This document shows positions 32,695 to 48,354 of a stretch of 64,000 nucleotides of DNA, in pieces. A model generated the notes under the pieces. It saw only the letters and a list, made by a program, of their open reading frames with translations, was not told the DNA's origin and did no database searches. Both the position numbers and the translations under genes were made by a program. Source of the stretch: an uncultured Bdellovibrionales bacterium (lineage in GTDB: Bacteria > Patescibacteriota > Minisyncoccia > Moranbacterales > UBA2206). Where the stretch lies: positions 17,248 through 81,247 of the forward strand of contig CAZWRY010000002.1 in the NCBI GenBank assembly GCA_964636505.1, written 5' to 3'. The first letter of the stretch is position 1; every line of letters begins with the position of its first letter.

Positions 32695-32732
32695 TTCTAA
32701 TTCGCGATGGATGATGATGTAGAAGTCTGGAA

Positions 32733-33002: not shown

Positions 33003-33259
33003 AGAATTTCTCCTTCTCGTTGAGATATTTTGACAATATGGTTAAATAAAACAAAAATAAAATCAAATTTTTTAATTTTATCGCCTCTCTCTTTCTACAT
33101 CTAAAGAACGACCTGCAATGGTAGCATGAATAGAGTGATTTGTCAAATAAAAAATAATTTTTGCCTAATTTAAGCCATTAAAATAGTATGAAATGGAATA
33201 ATTAGCGCAAGAAACACTTTTCTTAGGTACTCACACAACCTAAAACCACAAATTCCTTT

Positions 33260-34024: not shown

Positions 34025-34383
34025 AACTATTAAATATTTATATTAAACAATTTTTTAATCTATATCTTAAGCATATTTGATTATTATTAAAATGTAAACT
34101 AAAGTATAAAAAGAGTTAACCCTAAATGTTTTTATATATGAAAATTGGCATAATGCAAACTCAATCAGACATTATTTAAGCGATAGTTCTGAAAAATGCA
34201 TCCCCTTTGACTTCATAATAAAGTTGCCACCGCCCCAATACGAACGTGTAATAGTGGCTCGTGATACGCAAGGAAGAATTGTTCGGTCAATTCCAATTCA
34301 ATGAAATAAAAAAGGAGTATACTCATATTCCAGATTTAAGTCCGCAAATATAAACTACTCCTCTAGTGCTACTCACTATATTT

Positions 34384-34782
34384 TTATTCAGTCGTTTTCC
34401 CTTCAAATTCCGCTTCATTGGCTTCCGCTTCTTCCTTGGTAAGCCTGACAATCCCGTCTTTGTGATGAGCAGGAGAATAAATGGTGTAAAGTTTCAATTC
34501 TTCAGTTTCAGAAACGTTAATGACATTATGCTGAGCACCAGATGGAACAATTATAGCTGTGCCATCCTTGACATCATATTCATTGCTATCGATTATCACT
34601 TTTCCATCTCCCTGTTCGAATCTGAAAAACTGGTCGTTTTCTTCGTGAACCTCCATTCCAATTTCCTCTTTTGGTTTTAGGCTCATAAGAACCAACTGGC
34701 TGTGCTTGCCAGTATAGAGCACTTTGCGAAAATTTCCGTTTTCCAAAGTGTCTTTTTCGATTTCTCCAAAAAATCCTTTCAT
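34384..34782 (-). CDS. Cupin-domain protein.
   Basis: 132 aa; cupin motifs G(x)5HxH-like (MEVHEEND...) and IIVPSGAQHNVIN. Confidence 0.55.
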   Translation of the reverse strand: MKGFFGEIEKDTLENGNFRKVLYTGKHSQLVLMSLKPKEEIGMEVHEENDQFFRFEQGDGKVIIDSNEYDVKDGTAIIVPSGAQHNVINVSETEELKLYTIYSPAHHKDGIVRLTKEEAEANEAEFEGKTTE

Positions 34783-34815
34783 ATTGTTTTTGTTAATGAT
34801 TAAATTCCTATTGTA

Positions 34816-35550
34816 TTATTGAGCTGTCCAACCTCCATCCACATAAAGAATTGAACCTGTGACATATTTTGATTCATCGGAAGCTAAATATACGGCTGCA
34901 TAAGCGATATCATTCGGTTCTCCCATATGTCCTAGTGGCGTAGCGGAACAAATACCTTTATTAGCATCTTCATTATCTTGCATCCCTTTGGTCATTTGCG
35001 TCTTGATAAATCCTGGAGCAATAGCATTCACTCTGATTCCGTCAGATGCTAATTCTAAAGCAGAAGTGCGAGTTAGCTGGTTTACTCCGCCTTTAGAAGC
35101 ACAATAGGCTCCAGCGGTTTTAAATCCGACTTGTCCCAAAATGGAAGTAGTATTGATGATGGAACCTTTAATACCTTTTTCTTTCATATAGCTACTAGCT
35201 TCCCTGATTCCATAAAAAACCCCGCTTAAATTGATAGCAATTACTTTATCCCATATCTCATCAGACATAGTGGCTATTTCTCCCACAAGTCCCACGCCAG
35301 CATTGTTTACTATAATGTCTAATTGCCCAAATTTTTCTACAGCACTATCTATCAAATTTTTCACTTCTTCTTTTTTTGAAGTATCCGCTTTGACAAAAAT
35401 TGCATTTTCTCCTAAATCGTTTTCATTTGAATATGGATTAACATCCGAGAAAACCACTTTTGCTCCTTCTTTGAGATACATTTCGGCAATTGCCTTGCCG
35501 AGTCCCGATGAAGCTCCTGTTACGATTGCCACTTTGTTTTCCAGTCGCAT
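34816..35550 (-). CDS. SDR-family NAD(P)-dependent oxidoreductase (glucose-1-dehydrogenase / 3-oxoacyl-ACP-reductase-like).
   Basis: 244 aa; TGASSGLGKA Rossmann motif, NNAG, catalytic YCASK. Confidence 0.85.
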   Translation of the reverse strand: MRLENKVAIVTGASSGLGKAIAEMYLKEGAKVVFSDVNPYSNENDLGENAIFVKADTSKKEEVKNLIDSAVEKFGQLDIIVNNAGVGLVGEIATMSDEIWDKVIAINLSGVFYGIREASSYMKEKGIKGSIINTTSILGQVGFKTAGAYCASKGGVNQLTRTSALELASDGIRVNAIAPGFIKTQMTKGMQDNEDANKGICSATPLGHMGEPNDIAYAAVYLASDESKYVTGSILYVDGGWTAQ

Positions 35551-35599
35551 AGTTTTTGTTTTTATTTGAATTTTTGATTAAAAATACAAATAAAAAAAT

Positions 35600-36112
35600 T
35601 TAATTATTATTCATTGCTAAATCAAGTTTTTTATAAAATTTTGAATGAATTATAATCGGCAATAAAAATCGATATGTGAAAAATGATACTATGAAAGCAA
35701 TAATAATACTGCCTGCGATATCAATCGAATGATGGATTCCTGCCATCACTCTGGCTATGCCAACTAATATAGAGAGCCCGAAAAGCAATATCCCAGCTTT
35801 TCGATTAAAGCAAAAAATAACAGCGGCTATCGCACTGCCAAGTAACATATGATTTGAAGGAAATCCATTGTTTGCTTCGTGAAAAATAAGAGGGAGTGAA
35901 TTATCCAATACAAATGGACGTGGATTATAGTAAAAAATAGCCGATATTTTCGCTATCAAATAAATAAGAGGGAAAGAAACAAGACCGAAGATTGTTATTT
36001 GTTTTTGATGGTTTCTCGATTGTTTCAGAAAATAAAACAAGACAATAATCACTATTAAAATAAGTAAATATTCTGCATTAAAAATTATCAGATTATTTAA
36101 CAGATTTTTCAT
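35600..36112 (-). CDS. PAP2-family membrane phosphatase.
   Basis: 170 aa; PSNH and ARVMAGIHHSIDIAGS motifs (PSGH / SRx5Hx3D). Confidence 0.65.
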   Translation of the reverse strand: MKNLLNNLIIFNAEYLLILIVIIVLFYFLKQSRNHQKQITIFGLVSFPLIYLIAKISAIFYYNPRPFVLDNSLPLIFHEANNGFPSNHMLLGSAIAAVIFCFNRKAGILLFGLSILVGIARVMAGIHHSIDIAGSIIIAFIVSFFTYRFLLPIIIHSKFYKKLDLAMNNN

Positions 36113-36123
36113 ATGTTTTTATT

Positions 36124-36399
36124 TTATTCTTCAATTCTTAACGCTTTTCCTTTAACAATCGCTTCGGCGATTTTAATTCTGGCAGAAGACAAAATCCGCT
36201 GAAAAGTGCTTTGAGAAGTGTTCATTTTTTTTGAAGCCTCAATTTGCTCCAGCCCGTCAAAATCCTTAAGTTTTACCGCTTCCATTTCTTCTTTAGTTAG
36301 AATAACCTCGTCCAATTCATACATCGGTATTCCCTGGGGTTTGAAATAATGAGCCTTGGGTTTGAAGCGTAATCGCTTGCATAGTTTTGGTCTTGTCAT
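36124..36399 (-). CDS. DUF134 / UPF0251 predicted DNA-binding protein.
   Basis: 91 aa; typical family length and C-terminal HTH-like QSTFQRILSSARIKIAEAIV. Confidence 0.65.
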   Translation of the reverse strand: MTRPKLCKRLRFKPKAHYFKPQGIPMYELDEVILTKEEMEAVKLKDFDGLEQIEASKKMNTSQSTFQRILSSARIKIAEAIVKGKALRIEE

Positions 36400-36400
36400 A

Positions 36401-37453
36401 TTATTTTCTTTCTAAATTAACATTACACTCGGGACATTTTAGACTTGAGCAAGGCACTCCTCTTTCGTGTGGCACGCTATAACCGCATTTCGGACATACA
36501 CATTGTCCATCCGGTCCCTTTCCAACCGCCTCTTCTATTTTTTCCTTAAATCTTCCTCTTCTTTGCCAGCCAAAACTTCTACCGAAGCTAGGTTTGTAGA
36601 AACTGCTTTCAATTTCGTGGCTGGATATTTGAATGACCACATATTGCAGACTCTCGATTCCGTTTATAAGTTTATCCCTTAAGTTATTGGAAATTTTCGT
36701 TGCTTCTTCTACTTTTAAATCGCTGGGAAGATTGATTTCTAAATTAGCTGTAATAGTCGAGCCCTTCTTTTGGGTTTTCAATGAAATAAGTTCAATGTTC
36801 TCATTTTTAGCGATTTCTTTTATTATATTTTCTGTTTCTTCTCCGGCAGAAACATCTAACAATGAACCTGCCGCATCTTTTCCCACAATAAACGCTTCCT
36901 TTATTATATATACCCCCATCAGCATCGCCAAAACAGAATCGGCATAAATCCAATAAGGCGTTAGAAATAATCCGCCTAATATGGCAAGGGAGGTGTAAAC
37001 ATCAATTCTGGAATGGACTCCGTCTGAAAGCAGACTAATTGAGTTTTCTTTTTTGCCGTAGTAAGTTTTGAGCCTTGCCATTGCTTCGTTCACAATGCTG
37101 GAAAAAATCATTATTCCAAAAGCCAAATATCCAACTTCGACTTCTTGCGGAGAAAATATATTTTTGAAAGCATTATAAATAATTCCGATGCCAGTTGCCA
37201 AAATAATTATTGTAATAATAACTCCGCCCAAAACTTCAAACTTGTAATGTCCGTAGGGATGTTCTTTGTCGGCTGGTTTTTTTGCTATTTTTATCCCAAT
37301 ATAGCTTATGATTGAAGAAAAAATATCCACTAAAGAATCAATACCTGCCGTCAAAATAGCCGATGAATTGGAAAAAAATCCAACGGCAATTTTACCTCCA
37401 GCCAAAGTCGCATTTGCGATTATTGATAATATAGCAATTTTTTCTTTCATCAA
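36401..37453 (-). CDS. Cation diffusion facilitator (CDF) metal-efflux transporter fused to a C-terminal Cys4 zinc ribbon.
   Basis: 350 aa; six TM helices, HPYGHYKFE motif, cytoplasmic domain, tail CVCPKCG...CPEC. Confidence 0.8.
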   Translation of the reverse strand: MMKEKIAILSIIANATLAGGKIAVGFFSNSSAILTAGIDSLVDIFSSIISYIGIKIAKKPADKEHPYGHYKFEVLGGVIITIIILATGIGIIYNAFKNIFSPQEVEVGYLAFGIMIFSSIVNEAMARLKTYYGKKENSISLLSDGVHSRIDVYTSLAILGGLFLTPYWIYADSVLAMLMGVYIIKEAFIVGKDAAGSLLDVSAGEETENIIKEIAKNENIELISLKTQKKGSTITANLEINLPSDLKVEEATKISNNLRDKLINGIESLQYVVIQISSHEIESSFYKPSFGRSFGWQRRGRFKEKIEEAVGKGPDGQCVCPKCGYSVPHERGVPCSSLKCPECNVNLERK

Positions 37454-37468
37454 TTTATATTACACTTT

Positions 37469-38674
37469 TTATCCAAACATCAGCCACTGTGGTTTGAATA
37501 TCAAAAGTATTCCGATAATAAGCATAATCATTCCACCAATTAGTTGCGAGTATTTTGAATACTTGGTAGAAATTCCTGTCATTTCCAGAGTAATCATCGC
37601 TACAAAGAAAATAAACAAATCATCCAGCATAAAGAAAAAAATGTATAGCAAAATGTAAAGATAGTATTGTAATTTGGAAAGTTCGTTGAGTGCCAAGACT
37701 TGAGTGTATACCGCAGGAAGTCCCGCTGAACAAATGAGTTCCACTAAATTTACCAAAAAAGCCAATGCGATAATTCCTCCCAGTGCTAGCCAAAAACTAT
37801 TTTTACCGACTGTCGCTTTCAATTTTTGGAAAACTTTCTGTCGACTTTCGTCATTAGCGACTTTGCATCCGCTTTCTTTGTTGAATAAAAATTCTTTCAA
37901 ACTGTATCCTCCGCCAAATAACGCTAAAATTCCAATCAATATCCGCACCCAAATCACAAAGCCGAGAAATAAAATAAGATTAAGCCAGGCAGACATAAAC
38001 AAAAAATAGACGGAAGCGGAGGCGATAATAAAAGCTGTTCCCAAAATCCACATCCTTTTTCGGTCTTTCATCCCCAAAAGCAGACTAATAAGAAATAGGA
38101 GGGTCCACATCGCACAAGGGTTGAAACCGTCCAGAAAACCCATAATTATCGTGAGAATCGGCAGAGAAAATTTGTAAGCGTCAATTTTTCCAATAAGCGG
38201 AAGATTGATAATTTTCTCTTTTTCATTATTTTCAGATTCGGTGTTTTGTTTTGAATCTTTTTTATTTTCATCTTTAGAATTCATTATACTCGCTATCTTG
38301 TCAGGACAGCCACTATTGTTGCATTTTTCTATCTGGCTTTTGATTTCTTCCGAAGTTATGCTTTCAGCATATCCGACAAAATTTTTGTCACTGATAACCG
38401 AAAACGGAACGCCTGAAACATCTACATTCAATGATTTACCAATTTTTTGCAAAAGCAATGCGTTTTCCTTGTTGTGATATATTTCAAAACTCCTTATTTC
38501 CAAATTCGGATAAACTTTTTGCATTTCCTGCAAGAATTGCATCTCCTTGGCACAATGCGGGCAGCCATCACCGTAAAAGAAATATGCCTTTATTGATTCT
38601 GAAGCGTTAACCGAAATTACTGGTAGAGTCAGAAATGAAATTGAAAAAAATAATAGTAAAAAAAACTTCTTCAT
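37469..38674 (-). CDS. Thioredoxin-domain protein fused to a CcdA/DsbD-type thiol-disulfide transmembrane transporter.
   Basis: 401 aa; signal peptide, GCPHC thioredoxin motif, then multi-TM region with FNPCAMW (DsbD_2-like). Confidence 0.7.
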   Translation of the reverse strand: MKKFFLLLFFSISFLTLPVISVNASESIKAYFFYGDGCPHCAKEMQFLQEMQKVYPNLEIRSFEIYHNKENALLLQKIGKSLNVDVSGVPFSVISDKNFVGYAESITSEEIKSQIEKCNNSGCPDKIASIMNSKDENKKDSKQNTESENNEKEKIINLPLIGKIDAYKFSLPILTIIMGFLDGFNPCAMWTLLFLISLLLGMKDRKRMWILGTAFIIASASVYFLFMSAWLNLILFLGFVIWVRILIGILALFGGGYSLKEFLFNKESGCKVANDESRQKVFQKLKATVGKNSFWLALGGIIALAFLVNLVELICSAGLPAVYTQVLALNELSKLQYYLYILLYIFFFMLDDLFIFFVAMITLEMTGISTKYSKYSQLIGGMIMLIIGILLIFKPQWLMFG

Positions 38675-38677
38675 ACG

Positions 38678-38947
38678 CTATTTGTTTTGGTTTTGATTGA
38701 TAATTTCAACCAGCTTGTCCTTATCAATTTCTCCGTTTAAACGCAAAAATTCTTTTTCTTCTTTGTCTAAAAAAACAAAAGTGGGAAGCGTTTTGTCAAT
38801 TTTATGTTTCTTCACCATTTCTTTGTCATTGTCAAAATCATAATACTCGGTTTTAAGCCAGGGATTTTCCTCTTCAATTTTTTTCCATCTGGGCTTCATA
38901 ACTAGACACCCAGAGCACCAAACAGCCCCGAATTTTAATACTTTCAT
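38678..38947 (-). CDS. Small thioredoxin-like protein.
   Basis: 89 aa; WCSGC CxxC motif. Confidence 0.6.
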   Translation of the reverse strand: MKVLKFGAVWCSGCLVMKPRWKKIEEENPWLKTEYYDFDNDKEMVKKHKIDKTLPTFVFLDKEEKEFLRLNGEIDKDKLVEIINQNQNK

Positions 38948-39831
38948 AAATTTTGTTTTAAATTATTGTTCATTTCTATATTGCTAATTATTTCCTGAAA
39001 CAAACTTTTGTATTCTGGGTTCATCTCTAAAATCGGCTTCATCTCAATAGTTGCATCAACAAAATCTTTTCGGTATGGAATTTTGCCTAATATCGGAATA
39101 TCACTCTCTTTGGCAAATTTTTCTATTTCCAAACAAAAATTATTTGCTAAATCGTATTTATTGATAACAATTCCGTGCTTGATTTGGAAATGACGAGCCA
39201 GATACAAAACTCTTTTTAAATCGTGTAGAGCTGAGGGCGTTGGTTCGGTTACGGCCACAATATAATCAGTGCCGACCAACGAAGCTATAACCGGGCAACC
39301 GACTCCAGCTGAAGAATCTATAAGAAGCATTTCAATTTTTAATTGCTGGCTAATTTTGTCCGCATACTTTCTGACTTCCGCTACAATCTCTCCTGAAGCC
39401 AGTTCTCCCAGTTTAAGCTCGCCCGAAACAATATTTACTTGATAATTTTTTCCTGTGTATATTTCTCCGATTTCCTTTTTATCTTCCGAGATAGCTCCTG
39501 TTGGACAAGCTACTTTGCAAGCCTTGCATCCGATGCAAATATCTTGCACGAAAGCGGGATATTTATCTTTGACAAAAACAATGGCGTTTTGCTTGCAAAC
39601 TTCGGCACATTTTCCGCATTTCTTGCATTTAGAAAAATTCCACTTGGGAATGGCCTGATAAACAGTTTCAGATTTTTTTCTTTGAACAGAAAGCAAAAGA
39701 TGGTCATTGGGACATTCCACATCGGCATCAACTAAAAGTGTTTTATATTTTCTGGCAAATTCAATCGCCAAGGAAGTGGCAACCATCGATTTTCCCGTTC
39801 CGCCTTTCCCCCCAGTAACCGCTATCTTCAT
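38944..39831 (-). CDS. MinD/Mrp-like P-loop ATPase with an inserted 2x[4Fe-4S] ferredoxin domain.
   Basis: 295 aa; GGKGGTGKS deviant Walker A; two CxxCxxCxxxCP motifs (CKKCGKCAEVC, CIGCKACKVACP). Confidence 0.8.
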   Translation of the reverse strand: MKIAVTGGKGGTGKSMVATSLAIEFARKYKTLLVDADVECPNDHLLLSVQRKKSETVYQAIPKWNFSKCKKCGKCAEVCKQNAIVFVKDKYPAFVQDICIGCKACKVACPTGAISEDKKEIGEIYTGKNYQVNIVSGELKLGELASGEIVAEVRKYADKISQQLKIEMLLIDSSAGVGCPVIASLVGTDYIVAVTEPTPSALHDLKRVLYLARHFQIKHGIVINKYDLANNFCLEIEKFAKESDIPILGKIPYRKDFVDATIEMKPILEMNPEYKSLFQEIISNIEMNNNLKQNL

Positions 39832-40187
39832 AGTTTATGCTCTTCGCAAACATCTTCCAAAGATGCTTTCTGAAGTTTATTATTTTTCCACATCTCAAAA
39901 ATTTCTTTTACTGTTTCCGCTGATTGAACATATACTTCAATATTAAACTCTCGGCATAAATTCAAAGCCCGTGGACCCAATCCTCTGCAAAGCAAGACAT
40001 TCGCACTATGTTTTTTCATAAGTTCTGGCGGAAGCCCAATTCCTCCCATATGTTCGCTGGTATTATCTATTATTTCAAGAACTTGCCCATTTTCATCAAG
40101 AAACGTATAAGTATTGCACCTGCCGAAATGTTCGGCTATTTTGTCGTCTAAACCTTTTTTACCGTCTGTTGGAATGACAATTTTCAT
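39828..40187 (-). CDS. NifX/NifB-C-terminal-like dinitrogenase FeMo-cofactor-binding-domain protein.
   Basis: 119 aa; MKIVIPTDGK...FGRC...; small alpha/beta fold of this family. Confidence 0.7.
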   Translation of the reverse strand: MKIVIPTDGKKGLDDKIAEHFGRCNTYTFLDENGQVLEIIDNTSEHMGGIGLPPELMKKHSANVLLCRGLGPRALNLCREFNIEVYVQSAETVKEIFEMWKNNKLQKASLEDVCEEHKL

Positions 40188-40194
40188 ATTGGTT

Positions 40195-40527
40195 TTAATT
40201 GCTTAATTTTTTATCAATAAATTTCTGGATAACATCTTTTACTGCTCCATCCCCATTATATACTTCAATATTGAATTGCTTCAAAACATCCATTGCTCTG
40301 GGCCCTATGGTTCTGGCGATTACAACATTAACATTATTTTCTGCTAAAAGCTTGGCAGCCGACATTCCTGCCCCGCTAGCTTGATTTTCGTTATCGTTCT
40401 TTATGGCATCCGCTTTTGTTATCTTGCCGTTTTCAATATCTGCAATGACAAAATATGGGCATCTGCCAAATAACTCGGCAACACTATCGGACAATTCTTT
40501 GCCTTCCGAACTAATAGCTATTTTCAT
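40195..40527 (-). CDS. NifX/NifB-C-terminal-like FeMo-cofactor-binding-domain protein (second copy).
   Basis: 110 aa; MKIAISSEGK...FGRCPYFVI family signature. Confidence 0.7.
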   Translation of the reverse strand: MKIAISSEGKELSDSVAELFGRCPYFVIADIENGKITKADAIKNDNENQASGAGMSAAKLLAENNVNVVIARTIGPRAMDVLKQFNIEVYNGDGAVKDVIQKFIDKKLSN

Positions 40528-40547
40528 AACATTGAAATCTTAAAAAA

Positions 40548-40820
40548 TTATTTTTGATTTTTAATCTCTTCCAAACGGGATTTGACCGCTTTTAATTCTT
40601 CTTCCAGAACTTCCGCTTCTTTAGCAAGAATTTCAGCTTCTTCTTTTTTGTCTACGATTGGAGCAGGATAGTATCCCCAAAATCTTCTCCAGCCCAATCC
40701 GCGACCACCGCCTCGTCTTCGTCCATAATCCATACCGCCACCACAAGGACCCATTCCTCTTCCTGACATCGGTCCCATTCCCATCGGGCCTGTTCCATTT
40801 TGTCTTGGCATATTTATCAC
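40548..40820 (-). CDS. DUF5320-family small protein (Gly/Met-rich N-terminus plus coiled coil).
   Basis: 90 aa; MPRQNGTGPMGMGPMSGRGMGPCGGG typical of DUF5320, which is found next to NifX-like and MinD-Fd genes in anaerobes. Confidence 0.6.
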   Translation of the reverse strand: MINMPRQNGTGPMGMGPMSGRGMGPCGGGMDYGRRRGGGRGLGWRRFWGYYPAPIVDKKEEAEILAKEAEVLEEELKAVKSRLEEIKNQK

Positions 40821-40982: not shown

Positions 40983-43256
40983 ATGCCTCTTGATTTCGAT
41001 ATACCCGCCTCAAAAGCTAGAAAATTCGGTCTGATTGAAGAACTTCCAAAAATAAAGGATACAGAGAGGGTTTTAATTGAGGTTAATTCAATAAAAGAGA
41101 CAGCTAGTTCCGTTGACATTGATTGCAGGGTTTCGGTCAGAGGGAAACAAAGTGAGAATAAGATAAAATATTCAATAAACGATATTACGCCAGAAAAAGC
41201 CACCTTCGCAGGATGGGCTTTTATTTTGTCTTATACAGAACGAGGTGGATTCTATTCTGGCGAAAAAATTTCCGAGAAAGAAGAAAAATCTCTAAAGGAT
41301 AGTGCTAAAGCATTTCTCGAAATAGCAACAAAAGAGGATTCTTCAAAATCAAAAAAAATATCTTGTTTGCCTTATTATTTAATAGCAAAACATCACTTAT
41401 ATGATTATAAGGATAGGGCGAAAACAAACCTTCATAAATCGTTAGACTGTCCCGATGTATTTCCAGATGCATACGATGCTTTAATAAATCTAGAAAGCTA
41501 TTCCGTAAAGAAATTGCTTATTGCCCAAGAAGGATTAAAAAAATTCCCAAGTGAAGAAAAACTTATAACTGAAATAGTAGATTACTATGTTGAACATAAC
41601 GAAAATAAAAAAGCAACCGATTTAATTCTAAGCAAAAAAGAAGTCATTCCACCGGACAAATGGATAAATTATAAAAGTCTAAGATTGTTGCTGGTTTTTT
41701 GCTTAATCAAACTTAAAAAATTCGATGAAGCAAGAAAAGAAACAAAAATACCAATATGCGAAACTGACTTTGAAGAAGATGCAAATCTTTTTCTAAAAGG
41801 ATTCATTGAATATGAAGCTGGTGATTATCAAAAGGCAACCGACTTTTTTCTTGATACAATAAAAATTTCCACTTATAACTCTAGCGAAGTAAGAGCAAGT
41901 TATTATTTCCTATTGGGATGCTATTATAATCTGGGACAGACAAGCCAACTGGAAGAACTAGCCAAGGAATTTGAATTAGCCAGTGATTACTTTTACGTAG
42001 AAGCTCTTAGGGGGTTTCACTATGTGGAGAATGTTAGAAAAATTCTCAAAGATATAATCAAATCTGAAGTTGATGAACTCGTAAAAGCTAAACTTTCTGG
42101 ATTATTGGCTTTCTCTTATTTTCAGGAAATTGAAACTAATCAGCAAAGCATTAAAAACAGAGCTTTCTGGGGCGGAGATTTAACAAAAAAGGAGAAGGAG
42201 AGAATAAAGAAAAACCTTTCACTTTTAGAGGATACCTTGAGATACTATCCGCGTGTTTCATTTTTTAATGCCTTGTATGCAAATTTATGTAATTATATTG
42301 GATATTATGATAAAGCTGTTAAATTTGACTTGAAGGCAATTGACGGCAAGGAAAATGAAAATATGGATGCATACAGCTATACGGAACTTACTGAATGTTC
42401 TAAGGAATTTATTGATAATTATGCAGAAATAATCAAGGAAAATGTTAGAGATATTGATAAATATATCGAAGAAAGACTTAGTTCAGACATAAACTCTTTA
42501 TACGAAATAAAAAAATACAATGTAATATCAGAGATATATTTCTATCTTAAAAATCAGAACAAGCTTGATACAATATGGGGAGCAGAAACTGAAAGCTTTA
42601 ATGGCTTCCTATTCCGTCTTGCATATAGCCTGAATGAAAAGGGACATATAAAAGACGCTTCGGTGGCATACAAAAAACATATTGAATTTTACGATGAAGA
42701 TTCGAGTGTTCTGAATAACTTGGCACTAATAAGAGAAAAAGAAGGCAAACTGGAAGAAGCAAAAAGCTTAATAACCAAGGCTAAAAATATTTCTGAAGAA
42801 AATGATGAGGTGGTTGATAGAAATTATGCCCGATTGACTTCGAGTTCAAAAAAAATACAATCAACTTCAGAAATTATTGAAAAAGCAGAAGAAATAAAAT
42901 CAACATTCACACCCCAAGCATTGATTGAAAAAGGCATAGGATATTTCCAATTTCGCAAACAGCGACCAAAAATAAAAATTGGCCAATCTGATAGTCGGCA
43001 TTTCAGATTGTTGCAATTTTTATCCAGTCCTCTTGGCTCTTCCAGAACCATCGACAGCGTTTTTGACGCCATTAAATTGCCGAAAGATAAAAATGACCAG
43101 ATGCTGAACGGCTATAACACCTATCAATCAATCGGCAGAAAAATAGACCTAATAGAGTATGCTAAGAAAGAACTTCAAAAAAATAAGGAGCTTCAGGGCA
43201 GACTCAAGTTTGAATTAGACCGCAATCAAAAAACATATAGGCTTCGGCTTGTTTAG
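40983..43256 (+). CDS. Large TPR-like / alpha-helical repeat protein of unknown function.
   Basis: 757 aa; several TPR-like helix pairs (for example AYKKHIEFYDEDSSVLNNLALIREKEGKLEEAKSLI); no catalytic motif recognised; starts the putative integrative island. Confidence 0.6.
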   Translation: MPLDFDIPASKARKFGLIEELPKIKDTERVLIEVNSIKETASSVDIDCRVSVRGKQSENKIKYSINDITPEKATFAGWAFILSYTERGGFYSGEKISEKEEKSLKDSAKAFLEIATKEDSSKSKKISCLPYYLIAKHHLYDYKDRAKTNLHKSLDCPDVFPDAYDALINLESYSVKKLLIAQEGLKKFPSEEKLITEIVDYYVEHNENKKATDLILSKKEVIPPDKWINYKSLRLLLVFCLIKLKKFDEARKETKIPICETDFEEDANLFLKGFIEYEAGDYQKATDFFLDTIKISTYNSSEVRASYYFLLGCYYNLGQTSQLEELAKEFELASDYFYVEALRGFHYVENVRKILKDIIKSEVDELVKAKLSGLLAFSYFQEIETNQQSIKNRAFWGGDLTKKEKERIKKNLSLLEDTLRYYPRVSFFNALYANLCNYIGYYDKAVKFDLKAIDGKENENMDAYSYTELTECSKEFIDNYAEIIKENVRDIDKYIEERLSSDINSLYEIKKYNVISEIYFYLKNQNKLDTIWGAETESFNGFLFRLAYSLNEKGHIKDASVAYKKHIEFYDEDSSVLNNLALIREKEGKLEEAKSLITKAKNISEENDEVVDRNYARLTSSSKKIQSTSEIIEKAEEIKSTFTPQALIEKGIGYFQFRKQRPKIKIGQSDSRHFRLLQFLSSPLGSSRTIDSVFDAIKLPKDKNDQMLNGYNTYQSIGRKIDLIEYAKKELQKNKELQGRLKFELDRNQKTYRLRLV

Positions 43257-43302
43257 AGTATTTCAGAGTAAAACATAGAAAATTAAAAGGCATCAGTTTA
43301 GA

Positions 43303-43330
43303 GGGCTTTATTGGAAAGCCTTTTTTATTT
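43303..43330 (+). terminator. Rho-independent terminator of the 757-aa gene.
   Basis: GGCTTT ATTGG AAAGCC followed by TTTTTTATTT. Confidence 0.6.
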
Positions 43331-43437
43331 GGATAAAATAGCCGCATTTTCTATACAAAACCCTCTTTAACCCTCTCACTCATTTTTCACTGAGAGGGTT
43401 ATTCATACTGGACATATAACCATTAACAAAAAATTAT

Positions 43438-43731
43438 ATGCCCAGAAAATTATCCAAAAGTAACTCGGAGAAATTGGGTCGGATTTCATCCGATAACTAT
43501 CAAGATTTTTTAACTACTTATGACTTAGGCTGTTCAGCCGCACTGGTGAGCAGTGGCTTTGAGCTTGTCTCGCTGGATAAATCCAATCCGAAAAAAGTCC
43601 AGTTTATTTTCAAAAGAGAAATCGGCATTGAAAAAGTTGTTGACCAATACTGGGCAGACCGTCTGGATGTGAAGGCTAGGACGTTTTTCGACAACGTGAA
43701 AATGCTCAAAAATCGCATCTGGAGCGAATAA
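43438..43731 (+). CDS. DUF5659-like small protein.
   Basis: 97 aa; core TTYDLGCSAALVSSGFELVSLDKSNPKKVQFIFKRE resembles the DUF5659 family recalled from memory. Confidence 0.45.
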   Translation: MPRKLSKSNSEKLGRISSDNYQDFLTTYDLGCSAALVSSGFELVSLDKSNPKKVQFIFKREIGIEKVVDQYWADRLDVKARTFFDNVKMLKNRIWSE

Positions 43732-43745
43732 TTAACTTTGCCCAG

Positions 43746-44087
43746 ATGAAAACAAATACCCGAAAAATTTGTAGCCACAGAAGCTATACGATAGACGAAC
43801 TATCGAAAATTCTGGGCAAATGTGAAAAGACTTTTTCCCGTTGGATTGAAGAAGGCTTGAAAACAATCCCTGGATGCAAGAAGCCAATTCTGATAAGTGG
43901 CCGAGAAGTTAAAGAATTTATGAAGAATAGAAGATTAAAAAGAAAAATCCCGCTCAACCGCAACCAGTTTTTATGTATGACTTGTAAGGCCGCAAGATAT
44001 GCCAAAAGAGGTTCAATTAAGGTTGTCGGCGACAAAAAAACTGCTCTCTGTCGTGTCTGCAACGGCAAAATGAGCCGAATAATTTAG
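43746..44087 (+). CDS. Small HTH-like plus zinc-ribbon protein, hypothetical.
   Basis: 113 aa; C-terminal CMTCK...CRVCNG Cys4. Confidence 0.45.
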   Translation: MKTNTRKICSHRSYTIDELSKILGKCEKTFSRWIEEGLKTIPGCKKPILISGREVKEFMKNRRLKRKIPLNRNQFLCMTCKAARYAKRGSIKVVGDKKTALCRVCNGKMSRII

Positions 44088-44112
44088 CCCTACCAAAACG
44101 ACTATATGATAT

Positions 44113-45279
44113 TTGCAATCCTCGCTTAAATGTCTATTTTCACTGCTAATTATTATTTTCAACATTATGACAAAAATACTCTACCAAAATGAGCAAAGAA
44201 AACGGGAATTTCTCGAGCATTTGAAAGGTGCGGAAGGTTTCTCTGAAAGCTCCATCAATACCTTTGCTGAAGCCGTAGACCAATGGCAGATTTTCACCGA
44301 AAACGATGACTTTGCTAATTTCAACAAGTCAAAGGCTCTATCTTTTCGAGACTGGCTGAAAACTAGAAAATCCAACACTGAAAACGGCACAATTTCACTG
44401 GTAACACAATATAACTATCTTCGCCGAGTAAAAAGATTTTTCACTTGGCTAGCGGGGCAACCAGTTTATAAAAACAAAATTTTAAAGAATGACGTGGAAT
44501 TTTTACGCCTTTCTAAGGGAGATGCCCGCATAGCTCGCCAAGGCACGACCAAGCAAATGCCCACTTTTGAAGAAGCAAGGGCAATAATTGAAAGCATAGC
44601 GATAAAAAACGAAATAGATATGCGAGACCGAGCATTTATCTCCTTTATTCTTACTACTGGTATTCGCATTCACGCCGCCGCAACCTTGCGAATGAAAAGT
44701 TTTGACGCGAAAAACAGACTGATAGACCAAAATCCGGCAGACGGTATAAAAACCAAAAATTCAAAACGGATACTAACCACTTTCTTTCCTATAGGCTGGG
44801 ATGAACCGGAAAAATATTTTTTGGAATGGTTTGATTATTTAAAATCAAAAGGTTTCCGGCCAGATGACCCGATTTTTCCAGCTACACTAAATAATTTGAT
44901 TTCTGGAAGACAAGCTTACAGCCAAAATTCAATCGGCAGAAATTTTTGGAGCGGCACGAGCGGTGCAAGAAAAATTTTTGAGAAAAGATGTAAAAATGCT
45001 GACCTGCCATATTTTCATCCACATTCTTTCCGCCATTTGGTAGTTAACATTTTGAGTAAAACCCGTCTCACAGAAGAAGAGAAACGGGCCATAAGTCTTA
45101 ACCTTGGGCACGCCAATGTCGGCACGACTTTTGGTTCATATGGCTATGGAAGTATGACTGAAGATGACGCAGTCAAAATAGTGCAGAAATTGAAAGCAAC
45201 CAATCAAGACGGGAGCAATTTAGTCCTTTCAGATGATGAAAGAGCTGTTTTTGAGCGAGTTATAAATAGAATTTTATAA
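44113..45279 (+). CDS. Tyrosine-type site-specific recombinase/integrase. The true start is probably the ATG at 44167 (MTKILYQNEQ...).
   Basis: 388 aa; N-terminal SAM-like core-binding domain; catalytic R...HSFRH...LGHANVGTTFGSYGY (R-H-R-Y). Confidence 0.8.
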   Translation: MQSSLKCLFSLLIIIFNIMTKILYQNEQRKREFLEHLKGAEGFSESSINTFAEAVDQWQIFTENDDFANFNKSKALSFRDWLKTRKSNTENGTISLVTQYNYLRRVKRFFTWLAGQPVYKNKILKNDVEFLRLSKGDARIARQGTTKQMPTFEEARAIIESIAIKNEIDMRDRAFISFILTTGIRIHAAATLRMKSFDAKNRLIDQNPADGIKTKNSKRILTTFFPIGWDEPEKYFLEWFDYLKSKGFRPDDPIFPATLNNLISGRQAYSQNSIGRNFWSGTSGARKIFEKRCKNADLPYFHPHSFRHLVVNILSKTRLTEEEKRAISLNLGHANVGTTFGSYGYGSMTEDDAVKIVQKLKATNQDGSNLVLSDDERAVFERVINRIL

Positions 45280-45297
45280 ATAATACACGAGAAGAGA

Positions 45298-45528
45298 ATG
45301 GCTATCAAAGCTCGGATACAATTTCAGAGGATTTATAAAAATCCCGAAAAAACAATTTCTTTCAGAGAGGCTTTTATGTGCTCGGAAATTTCAACAAAAA
45401 AGATACATCAGCCCTCAGTGGATTATCAGCTCGCCGAAAATGAAGACGGGTTGTTTGAGAAAGCCTTTGACATTTTGTTTGAAGAAACATTGAGGCAAAA
45501 TAATGATTTGACAACTAATGACAATTAA
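45298..45528 (+). CDS. Hypothetical small protein.
   Basis: 76-aa ORF between the two recombinase genes; no motif. Confidence 0.3.
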   Translation: MAIKARIQFQRIYKNPEKTISFREAFMCSEISTKKIHQPSVDYQLAENEDGLFEKAFDILFEETLRQNNDLTTNDN

Positions 45529-45543
45529 GTATATAATAAAATT

Positions 45544-45723
45544 ATGGAATTTCTCACACTTGAACAAGTGGCTAAATACTTTGGAGTTCATCCTCGCACC
45601 GTTATGCGTTGGCTTAAGCAAGGCAGTCTCAAAGGTTATAAGTTGGGCAAAGGCAAAACGGCTCTTTTACGCATCCCCAAATCAGAAGTAAGTAAATTTT
45701 TAGAAAAACATAAAATCAAATGA
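45544..45723 (+). CDS. Excisionase / MerR-like HTH DNA-binding small protein; its stop overlaps the recombinase start (ATGA).
   Basis: 59 aa, below the ORF-track cutoff: MEFLTLEQVAKYFGVHPRTVMRWLKQGSLKGYKLGKGKTALLRIPKSEVSKFLEKHKIK; helix-turn-helix_17-like. Confidence 0.55.
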   Translation: MEFLTLEQVAKYFGVHPRTVMRWLKQGSLKGYKLGKGKTALLRIPKSEVSKFLEKHKIK

Positions 45724-47360
45724 ACTCGTTGAATGATGACAAATCAATAAAGCTTATAGCCACTTACGCTCGTGTTTCTGAAAATCCTGATGATGAAGAA
45801 GGGACTATAAAAAATCAGTCAATGACTTTTAATGAATTGGCTGAAAAGAATAATTGGCAGATAATCCAAGAATATAAAGATGATGATTGGAGTGGCGACA
45901 TTTTGGAACGACCCGCACTTGATAAACTTCGGCTTGATGCAAAAAACAAAAACAGAGTTTGGGAAGCAGTCCTTATTTATGACCCAGACCGTTTGGCTCG
46001 CCGATACTCTTATCAAGAACTGGTGATGGATGAATTGCGGGAAGCAGGCATTGAGGTGATTTTTGTAACCGTTCCCGCTCCCCGAAATACTGAAGAAAAA
46101 ATAATGTATGGCTTCAAGGGCTTGTTTGCCGAGTATGAACGAGCAAAAATTGCCGAGAGATTTCGTTTAGGCAAACTTCGCAAAGCCAGAAACGGACATA
46201 TTTTGACAACACAACCTTTATACGGCTATAACTATATTCCAAAACAAGGTGATAGGCACGGCTATTATGAAATCAATCCGATAGAAGCAAGAGTTGTTAA
46301 AATGGTATTTTCTTGGATTGCTAATGACGGAATGACTTTGAGGGGCGTGGTAAAAAAATTGCACGAGTTGGGCATCAGACCACGCAAAAGCAAAAGGGAT
46401 GTTTGGAACACGGGCACATTGAGCACAATGCTTCGGCATAGAGGATATATTGGTGAGGCACACTGGGGCAGTTCGTATGCAGTTGTTCCTGAAAGGCCGC
46501 TCAAAAATGAAAAATATAAAAAAGTAAAAAAGACCAGCCGCAGGATTAGACCAAGAGAAGAATGGATAACAATTCCTGTTCCAGCAATTATTGAGACAGA
46601 ATTATTTGAAAAAGCGAACACTCAATTGCAAGCAAATTTTGCATTATGCAAACGTAACAAAAGAAATGAATATCTCTTGGCTGGTAAAATTGAATGCGTC
46701 TGTGGCAGAAAAAGAACTGGCGAAGGATATTACAATAAGCCAAATCTTTATTATCGTTGCAGTGATAGAGTGCTAAATTTTCCCTTACCATCAAAATGCA
46801 AGGAAAGAGGCATCAATGCCAGAGTAGCTGATGAGCTTGTTTGGAAAAAAATTGCAAGACTAATGAGTTCTCCAGAATTGCTGGCAGAGCAAGTCAATCG
46901 CTGGTTCAAAAACAAGCAAAGTAAAACGGGAACGGTATTGATTGATATTGAAGCTCTAAAAAAAGAAGTTGAAAAACTGGGCAAACAAGTTGAACGATAT
47001 AATAAAGGCTATGGAGTGGGAGCGTTCACTCTGGATGAGCTCAAGGAATACACTGACCCTCTACGAGAGCAAATTAGCCAGCTTCAAGCCCAAATTTCAA
47101 AAGCTACAAGTGAAAGCAATCAAACTCATCTGAAAGCACCAAATGAGCAAGAAATGGAAGCATTTGCCGAAAAAGCGAGAAAGACCCTTCAAAACTTGAG
47201 TTTTACTCTCAAACGTGCGATAATTTTAAATACTGTTGAAAAAGTAATTGCTTCAAAAGAACATTTACGGGTAAACGGTTATTTACCCCTAAATGTCTCA
47301 TTGTGTTATGAAGATAGGAATTGTAGGACTGCCGAATGTGGGCAAAAGCACTCTGTTTAA
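45720..47360 (+). CDS. Large serine recombinase (resolvase, recombinase and zinc-ribbon domains).
   Basis: 546 aa; catalytic YARVSE serine, DxxRLAR motif, recombinase domain, Cys-rich zinc ribbon (CVCGRK...CSDR), coiled coil; 3' end overlaps ychF by 50 nt. Confidence 0.88.
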   Translation: MNSLNDDKSIKLIATYARVSENPDDEEGTIKNQSMTFNELAEKNNWQIIQEYKDDDWSGDILERPALDKLRLDAKNKNRVWEAVLIYDPDRLARRYSYQELVMDELREAGIEVIFVTVPAPRNTEEKIMYGFKGLFAEYERAKIAERFRLGKLRKARNGHILTTQPLYGYNYIPKQGDRHGYYEINPIEARVVKMVFSWIANDGMTLRGVVKKLHELGIRPRKSKRDVWNTGTLSTMLRHRGYIGEAHWGSSYAVVPERPLKNEKYKKVKKTSRRIRPREEWITIPVPAIIETELFEKANTQLQANFALCKRNKRNEYLLAGKIECVCGRKRTGEGYYNKPNLYYRCSDRVLNFPLPSKCKERGINARVADELVWKKIARLMSSPELLAEQVNRWFKNKQSKTGTVLIDIEALKKEVEKLGKQVERYNKGYGVGAFTLDELKEYTDPLREQISQLQAQISKATSESNQTHLKAPNEQEMEAFAEKARKTLQNLSFTLKRAIILNTVEKVIASKEHLRVNGYLPLNVSLCYEDRNCRTAECGQKHSV

Positions 47361-48354
47361 GGCTTTAACGCGGGTAACCGTAGACATCAACAATTACCCC
47401 TTTTGCACCATTGAGCCCAATGTGGGCATTGTTAAGGTACCCGATGAACGCCTTCAAAAATTGGCTAAAATGTCGCATTCAAAAAAAATAATCCCGGCCG
47501 TGGTGGAATTTGTGGATATTGCCGGCATTGTTAAAGGCGCTTCCGTCGGCGAAGGTCTGGGTAATAAATTCCTGTCTCATATTCGCGAAGTAGATGCCAT
47601 TGCCGAAGTTGTGAGAGTTTTTAAAAATTCCAATATTACTCATGTGCACAACAAGATTGATCCGGAAAATGATATTGAAATTATCAATTCAGAATTAATG
47701 CTGGCCGACCTGGAAACCATTGGCAAAGTAAAAATCAGATTGGAAAAGGATAAGCGCGGGAATAAGAAAGGCGCTACCGAGCAATTGGAAGTTTTGGAAA
47801 AAATTCAGAAAAATTTGGAAAATGGACATTTGGCCAATGAAACAGTTTTGGATATGCAAGAAGAAAATACCCAAATCATTGTCCGCGAACTTTCACTTTT
47901 GACCATGAAACCGTTCTTGTATGTCTACAACATAGCTGATGTTAATCAAAAGTTATCAGATAGCTTGGAAAAAAGAAGCCATGTGAAATTGGATATAAAA
48001 ATAGAAGAAGAGCTTTTGGAAATGTCTCCCGAAGAAGCCACAGAAATGGAAATCAAATCATCAATTGATGGCTTGATAGTTAAGGCTTACGAAATTCTTG
48101 GGCTCATCACCTTCCTCACAACCGGCGAAGATGAAACTCGCGCCTGGACTATCCGCAAAAATTCAACTGCGCCGATAGCCGGCGCTGCTATTCATAATGA
48201 CTTCAAAGACCGTTTCATTCGAGCTGATATCATCCAATGGAACAAGCTCCTGGAAGCCAGCTCTTGGTCCAAAGCCAGAGAGATGGGAATGCTTAGGACC
48301 GAAGGCAAAGACTACATTGTCCAAGATGGAGACGTAATAGAATTTAAGATATAA
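47311..48354 (+). CDS. ychF: Ribosome-binding ATPase YchF (Obg-family GTPase).
   Basis: [18 protein letters not shown]1 motif, TGS domain at the C-terminus. The ORF track's upstream extension (47293) belongs to the overlap with the recombinase. Confidence 0.85.

What the first reader, a model, noticed from the sequence alone, without database searches (positions are those of the whole stretch)
40983..47360. Putative integrative island with two recombinases, an excisionase-like sORF and a 757-aa TPR-like cargo protein, ending inside ychF
Plus-strand block in an otherwise minus-strand region: a promoter, then the 757-aa TPR-like protein, terminator, DUF5659-like and HTH/Zn-ribbon small proteins, a tyrosine integrase, a 76-aa ORF, a 59-aa MerR/Xis-like HTH whose stop overlaps (ATGA) the start of a 546-aa large serine recombinase. 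The recombinase's last about 17 codons overlap the first 50 nt of ychF, as if the element inserted at the 5' end of ychF and supplies or abuts its start. The large TPR protein and the small proteins are candidates for an undescribed cargo function (defence or regulation).
Basis: partly seen in the sequence, partly recalled or inferred. Interest (0 to 1): 0.65.

Follow-up and report, generated by a model that had tools for sequence, protein, structure and literature searches.

The report
Split-integrase mobile element inside ychF
A 13.2-kb mobile element sits inside the start of the conserved gene ychF in a Parcubacteria-type bacterium. Its serine integrase gene is cut in two by the insertion, so the free and the integrated element encode different versions of the enzyme.

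Summary
Its left end was misplaced by about 6.8 kb.

Metagenome contigs from five independent samples carry the uninterrupted site. They join window 34148 directly to 47319. The inserted DNA is therefore 13,170 bp (34149-47318), with crossover at a 2-nt GG core in the first P-loop glycine codon of ychF. It includes the minus-strand metal/redox operon.

The element replaces the ychF promoter and first three codons with its own 8-codon leader.

The large serine recombinase (LSR) ORF runs across attP. Integration leaves 533 codons at the right end, now finished by 13 codons of out-of-frame ychF. A conserved 51-codon C-terminal exon is detached to the left end (34149-34304).

The same layout recurs wherever the sequence extends far enough, in more than 30 related Patescibacteria loci. 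Element proteins are far more conserved than host genes, cargo varies, and two unintegrated (attP) forms were found.

The tyrosine integrase is a swappable accessory gene and does not define the island ends. The 757-aa protein is a rare TPR solenoid with no defence-system match.

This is a known kind of element with an apparently undescribed self-splitting serine integrase.

The parts
32530..34092 (.). Adjacent 1.6-kb variable segment (89-aa Zn-ribbon-like ORF 32733-33002 and 254-aa ORF 33260-34024, both minus strand). It is not part of the recombinase element.
   Evidence: Absent from L001/L002. Present in the empty-site contigs L036, L037 and L058. No Pfam hit for either ORF.
34117..34178 (+). 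attL: host B arm with the displaced native ychF start (ATGAAAATT, 34138-34146), GG core (34147-34148), then the element P' arm (CATAATGCAAACTCAATCAGACAT...).
   Evidence: Comparison of attB (L036/37/58/59/60) with attL and attR. The same arrangement is seen in L005, L008, L010, L011, L017 and L018 and in 13 metagenome contigs.
34149..34304 (+). Detached C-terminal exon of the serine recombinase: 51 codons plus stop (HNANSIRHYLSDSSEKCIPFDFIIKLPPPQYERVIVARDTQGRIVRSIPIQ*). It is in frame with codon 533 of the recombinase only when the element is circular.
   Evidence: Reconstruction. Matches the C-termini of full-length homologues P0025, P0100, P0116 and P0075. Found intact at the left end of the 7 other integrated elements whose left end was in view. 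dN/dS 0.02-0.25 wherever computable.
34384..40820 (-). Cargo operon: cupin, SDR, PAP2, DUF134 regulator, CDF cation-efflux transporter, 401-aa thioredoxin-like membrane protein, thioredoxin, MinD/NUBPL-type Fe-S ATPase, two NifX-like (Nitro_FeMo-Co) proteins, DUF5320.
   Evidence: Pfam. The 401-aa ORF has no Pfam hit; its label comes from reading the sequence only. 83-85% nucleotide identity to the cargo of the related element L004. Absent from the empty sites.
40983..43256 (+). 757-aa protein: small N-terminal beta domain, TPR-like solenoid, and a C-terminal alpha/beta domain that may be a winged helix. Probable regulator; function not established.
   Evidence: Weak TPR Pfam hits. AlphaFold2 pLDDT 78. 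Only generic TPR fold matches. Only 5 homologues found. No PADLOC or PHROG hit.
43300..43324 (+). Terminator-like hairpin after the 757-aa gene.
   Evidence: consensus scan only.
43438..43731 (+). DUF5659 protein. It recurs in most family members.
   Evidence: Pfam E 1e-9. 57-88% identical copies in most full-length family loci; none detected by blast in L020-L024 or L029. L005 carries a diverged Pfam-annotated copy.
43746..44087 (+). 113-aa HTH_17 plus Zn-ribbon-like protein, paired with the tyrosine integrase.
   Evidence: Pfam. Homologous pair in L020, L021 and L052.
44113..45279 (+). Tyrosine integrase (probable start ATG 44161). It is an accessory module in a variable slot.
   Evidence: Phage_integrase E 3e-13 and PHROG 1. 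The slot holds unrelated 341-388-aa ORFs in L004, L005, L008 and L038. One of these hits PHROG 702 'replication protein' weakly.
45298..45528 (+). 76-aa ORF. Its C-terminal half is conserved across the family.
45544..45723 (+). 59-aa HTH_17 excisionase-like protein. Candidate directionality factor or regulator. Its stop overlaps the recombinase start.
   Evidence: Pfam E 5e-15. PHROG 66 'excisionase and transcriptional regulator'. 74-97% identical and in the same position in most family loci.
45720..47360 (+). Large serine recombinase, integrated (truncated) form: 533 element-encoded codons plus 13 codons read from ychF in another frame.
   Evidence: Pfam. Fold matches SPbeta, phiC31, Bxb1 and LI integrases. 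109 of the 120 closest homologues lack the C-terminal module, and the tails listed are mostly ychF-frame readings.
47287..47348 (+). attR: element P arm (includes ATGTCTCATTGTGTTATGAAGATA, which becomes the new ychF leader), GG core (47317-47318), then the host B' arm (AATTGTAGGACTGCCGAATGTGGGC...).
   Evidence: attP dyad ATGTC-N19-GG-N19-GACAT: 17 of 30 positions match against 8.1+/-2.4 by chance.
47293..48354 (+). ychF. The first 8 codons (MSHCVMKI) and the upstream signals come from the element. Host sequence begins at the GG of the first P-loop glycine (47317).
   Evidence: The native form MKIG... is seen in the empty sites.

Best explanation
Window 34149-47318 is a 13,170-bp integrative element moved by its large serine recombinase (LSR).

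Shown:
- Recombination between attP and attB took place at a 2-nt GG core. This is the first two bases of the codon for the first glycine of the ychF P-loop ([11 protein letters not shown]).
- The element displaces the native ychF promoter and first three codons to attL.
- It puts its own upstream DNA and an 8-codon leader in front of ychF.
- attP lies inside the LSR reading frame. In the free form the gene encodes 584 aa, ending in a predicted disordered linker (encoded by the att site itself) and a conserved ~35-aa three-stranded module.
- Integration cuts the gene after codon 533. The integrated copy keeps the catalytic, recombinase, zinc-ribbon and coiled-coil domains but ends in 13 residues of out-of-frame ychF. 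The last 51 codons lie 13 kb away at the left end.
- The layout is family-wide in Patescibacteria, and the elements move between distantly related hosts with varying cargo.

Inferred:
- The two isoforms differ in activity, so the enzyme reports whether the element is free or integrated. My favoured version is that the full-length form drives integration, while the truncated form, together with the overlapping 59-aa HTH_17 protein, remains able to excise.
- ychF is then transcribed from element signals.
- The tyrosine integrase, the 757-aa TPR protein and the metal/redox operon are cargo or accessory modules that play no part in defining the ends.
For: Empty site and crossover:
- Five contigs from five samples (L036, L037, L058, L059, L060) join window 34148 directly to 47319, with 99-100% identical flanks.
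- attB, attL and attR differ exactly as expected for a 2-nt GG crossover.

Family-wide target:
- 22 of 24 related loci from genomes show the ychF P-loop immediately at the recombinase 3' end. The other two are cut off by contig ends. LSR identity ranges from 46 to 82%.
- In the 7 distinct related elements where the left end was in view, the displaced native ychF start sits next to GG and the P' arm. The same is true in 13 of 14 metagenome matches.

Split gene:
- The reconstructed ORF is 584 aa.
- Its tail matches full-length homologues.
- The exon is intact, in frame after GG, in every integrated element whose left end was in view, with dN/dS 0.02-0.25.
- 109 of the 120 closest homologues lack the module.

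Free forms: L038 and L054 carry an intact attP inside a full-length gene, followed by cargo and not by ychF.

Horizontal spread: LSR 94/82/75% and HTH_17 97/93/81% identity, against YchF 74/72/46%, PGM 42/38% and S6 56/29% in the same loci.

LSR membership: Pfam, fold matches, attP dyad.

Structure of the tail: residues 522-545 have pLDDT below 50, followed by strands 547-555, 563-568 and 574-579.
Against: - No recombination was observed directly. Empty sites may be never-occupied ancestors and not products of excision.
- The attP form of this exact element was not found.
- Nothing shows that the two isoforms differ in activity. The C-terminal module has no known homologue with a known function.
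- Conservation of the detached exon could reflect recent integrations from a pool of free elements, and not continuing use after integration.
- The HTH_17 protein is only a candidate directionality factor.
- Strains L001/L002 differ from the window by an additional 1.6-kb indel with untidy junctions that I could not explain.
Confidence: 0.85

Rival explanations
1. One-way ('suicidal') integration. The truncated integrated LSR cannot excise, integration is a dead end, and the family persists through free, replicating copies. This would be the serine-recombinase counterpart of SSV-type archaeal integrases.
For: The gene is split on integration, as in SSV-type integrases (PMC7253208). Most relatives carry a 341-388-aa ORF with a weak 'replication protein' hit, which would allow an episomal life. 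Free attP forms exist. Decayed LSR-less remnants exist (L050).
Against: All catalytic and DNA-binding domains remain in the truncated protein. Well-studied LSRs such as Bxb1 are about 500 aa (my own knowledge; its solved chain is 486 residues) and were not seen to carry such a module. A conserved excisionase-like gene is translationally coupled to the LSR. The window element has a tyrosine integrase and not the Rep-like ORF, so it has no obvious way to replicate when free.
Confidence: 0.25
2. One reading: a 6.4-kb island (40983-47360) whose ends are set by two cooperating recombinases, with the minus-strand genes to the left being ordinary chromosome.
For: The strand switch at about 40900 and the divergent promoter-like sites there.
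Against: Empty sites lack everything from 34149 to 47318. The displaced ychF start and the LSR C-terminal exon are at 34138-34304. No ychF remnant lies near 40900. The operon is also cargo of the related element L004.
Confidence: 0.02
3. The tyrosine integrase is the enzyme that inserted the island, and the serine recombinase is a passenger or invertase.
For: The tyrosine integrase looks intact: Phage_integrase domain, with HxxR and a terminal Y visible in the sequence.
Against: There is no direct repeat at the ends. The crossover is 2 nt and lies inside the LSR gene. The same target and junction occur in family members that lack any tyrosine integrase.
Confidence: 0.02
4. A fixed, vertically inherited chromosomal module that is no longer mobile and only looks like an island.
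For: It sits at the same chromosomal position (between PGM and ychF) in several genomes.
Against: Element proteins are much more similar than host proteins. Presence and absence vary among strains 99.3-100% identical over their aligned flanks. Cargo turns over. attP forms exist.
Confidence: 0.04
5. A prophage or phage satellite.
For: LSRs are common phage integrases. One relative (L005) carries a GP3_package-like gene.
Against: No structural, lysis or packaging hits in the nine window ORFs scanned against PHROGs; the cargo operon was not scanned. No relatives in the viral contig collection in two scans. The element is only 13 kb, and about half of it is a metabolic operon.
Confidence: 0.04

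Closest known systems
Serine-integrase (LSR) integrative elements and prophages that insert into coding genes (e.g. Bxb1 in groEL1, the SPbeta and skin elements, LSR-bearing pipolins reported at ychF; PMC11551731)
   Same: Same enzyme architecture, 2-nt crossover, no target duplication, dyad attP and integration into a conserved gene. ychF has been reported as an LSR target for pipolins in other phyla.
   Different: Here the insertion is at the 5' end and the element rebuilds the gene start. The LSR ORF itself spans attP and loses a conserved C-terminal module on integration. There is no piPolB. The hosts are Patescibacteria.
SSV-type 'suicidal' tyrosine integrases of archaeal viruses and plasmids (PMC7253208, PMC8371274)
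   Same: attP lies within the integrase ORF, and integration partitions the gene to the two ends of the integrated element.
   Different: A different enzyme superfamily (tyrosine versus serine). SSV-type partition disrupts the integrase gene (PMC7253208). Here only a 51-aa tail is removed and all recognised domains stay together.
Integration-dependent immunity of mycobacteriophages (attP inside the repressor gene; PMC8092301)
   Same: Integration changes the C-terminus of a phage protein because attP is inside its gene. The free and integrated forms therefore differ in activity or stability.
   Different: There the gene is the repressor and the integrase is a tyrosine recombinase. Here the altered protein is the serine recombinase itself, and no functional difference has been shown.
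Streptococcus pneumoniae prophage remnant upstream of ychF that controls ychF expression (cited in PMC8637289)
   Same: A mobile-element integrase gene lies immediately upstream of ychF, and the element influences ychF expression.
   Different: That element uses a tyrosine integrase with an intergenic attB between DUF951 and ychF. Here the crossover is inside the ychF coding sequence.

Membership tests
Large serine recombinase (serine integrase) | N-terminal resolvase-type catalytic domain with the catalytic serine | tested here: met
   PF00239 E 1.5e-27. The Y-x-R-V-S motif is invariant in a 69-sequence alignment that includes the window protein.
Large serine recombinase (serine integrase) | Recombinase domain plus zinc-ribbon domain with an inserted coiled coil | tested here: met
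   PF07508 E 4e-18 and PF13408 E 3e-6. Long helices 382-465 in the model. Best fold matches are SPbeta, phiC31, Bxb1 and LI integrases, E 1e-13 to 1e-20.
Large serine recombinase (serine integrase) | Conservative recombination at a 2-nt core with no target-site duplication | tested here: met
   attB, attL and attR share only GG at the switch point. No flanking repeats.
Large serine recombinase (serine integrase) | attP of about 50 bp with imperfect dyad symmetry around the core | tested here: met
   ATGTC-N19-GG-N19-GACAT. 17 of 30 positions are symmetric in the window (chance 8.1+/-2.4; fraction at or above observed 0.0009). Positions -24 to -21 are symmetric in all 9 elements and position -20 in 8 of 9.
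Large serine recombinase (serine integrase) | Catalytic activity, and directionality controlled by a separate factor | not testable with these tools
   Candidate factor: the 59-aa HTH_17 protein coupled to the LSR.
SSV-type self-partitioning integrases | attP within the integrase ORF, with the gene split by integration | tested here: met
SSV-type self-partitioning integrases | Tyrosine-recombinase fold and chemistry | tested here: not met
   The split enzyme is a serine recombinase. It works like an SSV-type integrase in this one respect but is not a member.
Tyrosine integrase (ORF 44113-45279) | Phage_integrase catalytic domain with R..HxxR..Y | tested here: met
   PF00589 E 3e-13 and a SAM-like N-terminal domain. 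The motifs TGIRIH, HSFRH and GSYGY are visible in the translation.
Tyrosine integrase (ORF 44113-45279) | Its own att sites (direct repeats) at the island ends | tested here: not met
   No such repeats. The ends are explained by the LSR.
Prophage | Virion structural, packaging or lysis genes | tested here: not met
   No such PHROG hits in the nine ORFs scanned; the cargo operon was not scanned. No relatives in viral contigs.
Integrative conjugative element | Relaxase and type IV secretion genes | tested here: not met
   Pfam scans of all called ORFs of 59 aa or more in the element show none.
Pipolin | Primer-independent PolB gene | tested here: not met
   No polymerase domain in any ORF of the element.
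Anti-phage defence island (for the 757-aa protein and small ORFs) | Match to a known defence-system protein | tested here: not met
   PADLOC gives nothing for the 757-aa, DUF5659, integrase or 76-aa proteins. The only hit is a weak HTH-level match (mad1) for the 113-aa ORF.

The most novel reading that the evidence does not exclude
The serine recombinase uses its own gene structure as a state sensor. Because attP lies inside the ORF, the free element makes a 584-aa enzyme with a C-terminal beta module that favours or permits integration. The integrated element can only make a 546-aa enzyme that lacks the module. This second enzyme has different directionality or activity: excision-competent with the HTH_17 partner, or silenced. 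This would be a built-in, integration-dependent isoform switch for a serine integrase, used by a large family of Patescibacteria elements that all target the ychF P-loop codons.
Probability: 0.35. Interest if true: 0.85.

Novelty: new variant of a known kind. Interest (0 to 1): 0.68.

Why it matters
1. It defines, to the base pair, a widespread family of mobile elements in Patescibacteria. Mobile DNA in this group is poorly described, and ychF is a nearly universal target.
2. A serine integrase whose gene is cut by its own attachment site gives a directly testable route to state-dependent control of directionality. That is the central open problem for these enzymes and for their use as genome-engineering tools.
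3. The attP/attB pair and the enzyme could serve as an integration tool for Patescibacteria (my own knowledge: genetic manipulation of this group has only recently been reported).
4. The elements carry adaptive cargo between distant hosts. The cargo includes metal and redox genes, APH/Erm-like genes, and glycosyltransferases.

Tried and rejected
- **Flanking direct or inverted repeats around 40400-47800:** only chance-level matches.
- **First empty-site comparison (L001/L002):** it suggested a 14.8-kb insertion starting at 32534 with 29-42 nt of the empty site missing. I spent several steps on deletion, tandem-element and homologous-recombination models. Mismatch mapping showed no clustering of SNPs near the junctions. 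The puzzle was resolved when contigs L036/L037 gave the true attB.
- **A tentative palindrome (GTTAT-GA-ATAAC) at 32530/47308:** this was a false lead.
- **Search for a ychF 5' remnant by peptide pattern:** failed because only 3 codons are displaced.
- **757-aa protein:** PADLOC, PHROGs and Pfam on its separate domains, a PDB sequence search and hhalign against neighbours' ORFs were all negative or insignificant. Foldseek gave only generic TPR matches. The afdb50 library was unavailable.
- **Are the 341-388-aa ORFs of relatives diverged tyrosine integrases?** No similarity.
- **Viral contig scans:** no relatives.
- **Exact look-up of the reconstructed 584-aa protein:** not in the collection.
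- **Rfam and tRNA scans of the window:** nothing.

Full report
**1. The observation**

| Coordinates | Product | Evidence |
|---|---|---|
| 40983-43256 | 757-aa ORF | weak TPR hits |
| 43438-43731 | DUF5659 | E 1e-9 |
| 43746-44087 | HTH_17/Zn-ribbon ORF | Pfam |
| 44113-45279 | tyrosine integrase | PF00589 E 3e-13 |
| 45298-45528 | 76-aa ORF | no family |
| 45544-45723 | 59-aa HTH_17 ORF | E 5e-15 |
| 45720-47360 | 546-aa large serine recombinase (LSR) | Resolvase + Recombinase + Zn_ribbon_recom |

The stop of the 59-aa ORF overlaps the start of the LSR. The LSR ORF ends inside ychF. The window has no tRNA gene and no Rfam match. No flanking repeats above chance were found.

**2. Finding the real ends**

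An exact look-up of the window's YchF found two contigs without the island, L001 and L002.
- Against these, the window has 14.8 kb extra (32534-47307). However, 29-42 nt of the empty site were missing, and the first ychF codons differed synonymously.
- That could not be a clean site-specific insertion.

Look-ups with the proteins at the left edge resolved this.
- Contigs L036 and L037 join window 34148 directly to 47319.
- Three more contigs from three further samples do the same: L058 (11.8 kb), L059 and L060.

The four sites read as follows.

| Site | Sequence |
|---|---|
| attB | tatATGAAAATT-GG-AATTGTAGGACTGCC |
| attL (window 34138-) | tatATGAAAATT-GG-CATAATGCAAACTC |
| attR (window 47308-) | gttATGAAGATA-GG-AATTGTAGGACTGCC |

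The sequences switch partners exactly at GG. The insertion is therefore 13,170 bp with a 2-nt core and no duplication. It includes the whole minus-strand block 34384-40820.

The 1.6 kb further left (32530-~34092) is a separate indel. It is present in the empty-site strains and absent from L001/L002.

A contig from the same sample as L003 stops exactly at the attL core. My inference is that occupied and empty, or circular, forms coexist in that sample.

**3. What the element does to ychF**

GG is the start of the codon for the first glycine of the P-loop ([15 protein letters not shown]).
- The native promoter region and the ATGAAAATT start are displaced to attL.
- At attR the element supplies ATGTCTCATTGTGTTATGAAGATA, so YchF now begins MSHCVMKI-G....
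- Across 30 related loci the element always supplies an ATGTC... leader of about 8 codons ending just before GG. Downstream of GG the sequence is host-specific.

**4. The recombinase gene is split**

The LSR frame crosses the core at codon 533 (AGG).
- In the integrated state it continues into ychF in another frame for 13 codons ([13 protein letters not shown]). It stops at the TAA created by the conserved TTT-AAx (Phe-Lys/Asn) of YchF.
- Joined instead to the left end (34149-34304), it continues for 51 codons. This gives a 584-aa protein ending ...IPFDFIIKLPPPQYERVIVARDTQGRIVRSIPIQ.
- Full-length homologues of 576-604 aa have the same tail. Examples are P0025, P0100, P0116 and Bradyrhizobium P0075.
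- 109 of the 120 closest homologues lack the tail. Most of those I read end in ychF-frame sequence instead.
- The detached exon is present, intact and in frame directly after GG at the left end of the integrated elements whose left end was in view: L004, L005, L008, L010, L011, L017 and L018. Next to it is the displaced native ychF start (ATGTCATTTCAAATC|GG or ATGAAAATT|GG).
- dN/dS is 0.02-0.25 wherever it can be computed, with synonymous sites saturated.
- A scan of metagenomes for the P' arm gave 13 attL-type sites and 1 attP-type site.
- Contigs L038 and L054 show the unintegrated arrangement, with a full-length gene followed by cargo.
- An AlphaFold2 model of P0025 predicts a disordered linker (residues 522-545) followed by a three-stranded module. 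From the sequence, that linker is the stretch encoded by the att site itself.
- The body of the model matches the SPbeta, phiC31, Bxb1 and LI integrases.
- attP has the expected dyad, ATGTC-N19-GG-N19-GACAT.

**5. A mobile family**

| Locus | LSR % id | HTH_17 % id | Host genes % id |
|---|---|---|---|
| L004 | 94 | 97 | YchF 74, S6 56, SSB 70 |
| L005 | 82 | 93 | YchF 72, PGM 42 |
| L008 | 75 | 81 | YchF 46, PGM 38, S6 29 |

- The element proteins are far more conserved than the host genes, so the elements move horizontally.
- 22 of 24 genome loci show the ychF P-loop at the LSR 3' end. The other two are cut off by contig ends. This holds down to 46% LSR identity.
- Element sizes range from 5.6 to 13.2 kb.
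- Cargo varies. L004 carries the same metal/redox operon. L005 carries protease and PKD genes, L008 APH plus an Erm-like methyltransferase, and L038 glycosyltransferases.
- The family was not found in viral contigs.
- The window's YchF is closest to Parcubacteria-group and Moranbacteria proteins, at 78-81% identity.

**6. The other genes**

*Tyrosine integrase.* It looks intact but occupies a variable slot.
- L020, L021 and L052 have a homologous pair (integrase plus HTH/Zn-ribbon protein).
- Most relatives have an unrelated 341-388-aa ORF there. One of these gives a weak 'replication protein' hit.
- It does not explain the island ends.

*The 757-aa protein.*
- It has only five homologues in the protein collection.
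- The 58%-identical one again sits just upstream of a DUF5659 gene in another mobile context, one with a Toprim primase.
- The model (pLDDT 78) shows a small beta domain, a TPR-like solenoid and a C-terminal alpha/beta domain. Its topology resembles an OmpR-type winged helix, but no sequence method supports that.
- No defence-system match was found.
- My best guess, at low confidence, is a TPR-type regulator of the element.

*The cargo operon.* It encodes a CDF transporter, thioredoxins, a MinD-type Fe-S ATPase, NifX-like proteins, a DUF134 regulator, an SDR, a cupin and a PAP2 phosphatase.

**7. Mechanism**

Shown: the ends, the 2-nt crossover, the takeover of the ychF 5' end, the split ORF, the family-wide pattern, horizontal spread and the existence of attP forms.

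Inferred:
- The truncated and full-length enzymes may behave differently. I favour an integration-proficient full-length form and a truncated form that can still excise with the HTH_17 partner.
- The main rival is one-way integration in the manner of SSV-type integrases. It cannot be excluded, because empty sites may be ancestral and exon conservation may reflect recent arrivals.

**8. Comparison with what is known**

- ychF has been reported as an LSR target for pipolins in other phyla (PMC11551731).
- A pneumococcal tyrosine-integrase prophage remnant next to ychF controls its expression (PMC8637289).
- Self-partitioning integrases are known for archaeal tyrosine recombinases (PMC7253208, PMC8371274).
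- Integration-dependent C-terminal truncation is known for mycobacteriophage repressors (PMC8092301).
- I found no report of a serine integrase whose own ORF spans attP. The library does not cover all journals.

**Verdict**

A real and precisely delimited mobile element of a known kind (an LSR integrative element), with a new and testable variant feature.

Noticed in passing
window 32530-34092: A 1.6-kb segment (89-aa Zn-ribbon-like ORF and 254-aa ORF without Pfam hits) is absent from strains L001/L002 but present in strains with the empty attB. Its right flank (ccctaaATGTTTTTATATATGAAAATT|GG) resembles a degenerate P arm of the element family, so it may be the remnant of an earlier element. 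The junctions are not clean, and the origin is unexplained.
   Followed up: partly
L050 10502-12680: An LSR-less 2.1-kb islet lies between an attL-like site (with a truncated LSR C-terminal exon) and ychF. It carries a methyltransferase-like gene and a RelE/ParE-like toxin-antitoxin pair. It looks like a decayed family member.
   Followed up: partly
L008 4552-11609 (also L025): A 7-kb family member in a MAG labelled Saccharibacteria carries an aminoglycoside-phosphotransferase-like (APH) gene and an Erm-like rRNA adenine dimethylase (RrnaAD) as cargo.
   Followed up: no
L004 8558-9679; L038 1167-2288; L008 8513-9679; L005 8566-9591: In the slot where the window has the tyrosine integrase, most family members have a 341-388-aa ORF without Pfam hits. 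The L004 copy hits PHROG 702 'replication protein' weakly (E 1e-4). This hints that excised elements may replicate.
   Followed up: partly
L040 3363-8733 and L041: A 58%-identical homologue of the 757-aa protein is again followed by a DUF5659 gene, then by a 736-aa Toprim_2 primase-like gene. The 757-aa/DUF5659 pair therefore travels as a module among different mobile elements.
   Followed up: partly
L034/L035 contig end = window 34148: A Logan contig from sample SRR35116082 ends exactly at the attL core dinucleotide. This is consistent with a branch in the assembly graph between occupied and empty (or circular) forms in that sample.
   Followed up: no
window 43367-43398: A 10-bp perfect inverted repeat (AACCCTCTCA ... 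TGAGAGGGTT) lies in the intergenic region between the 757-aa gene and the DUF5659 gene, downstream of the terminator-like hairpin. It could be an operator or a second hairpin.
   Followed up: no
P0075, P0077, P0084 (Bradyrhizobium) and P0111 (Nitrososphaera): Full-length LSR homologues at about 60% identity are annotated in Bradyrhizobium genome records (the longest contigs carrying P0077 and P0084 are 8.9-9.8 Mb) and in a Nitrososphaera MAG. The gene is intact there, so these copies either use another target or are not integrated through their own attP.
   Followed up: no
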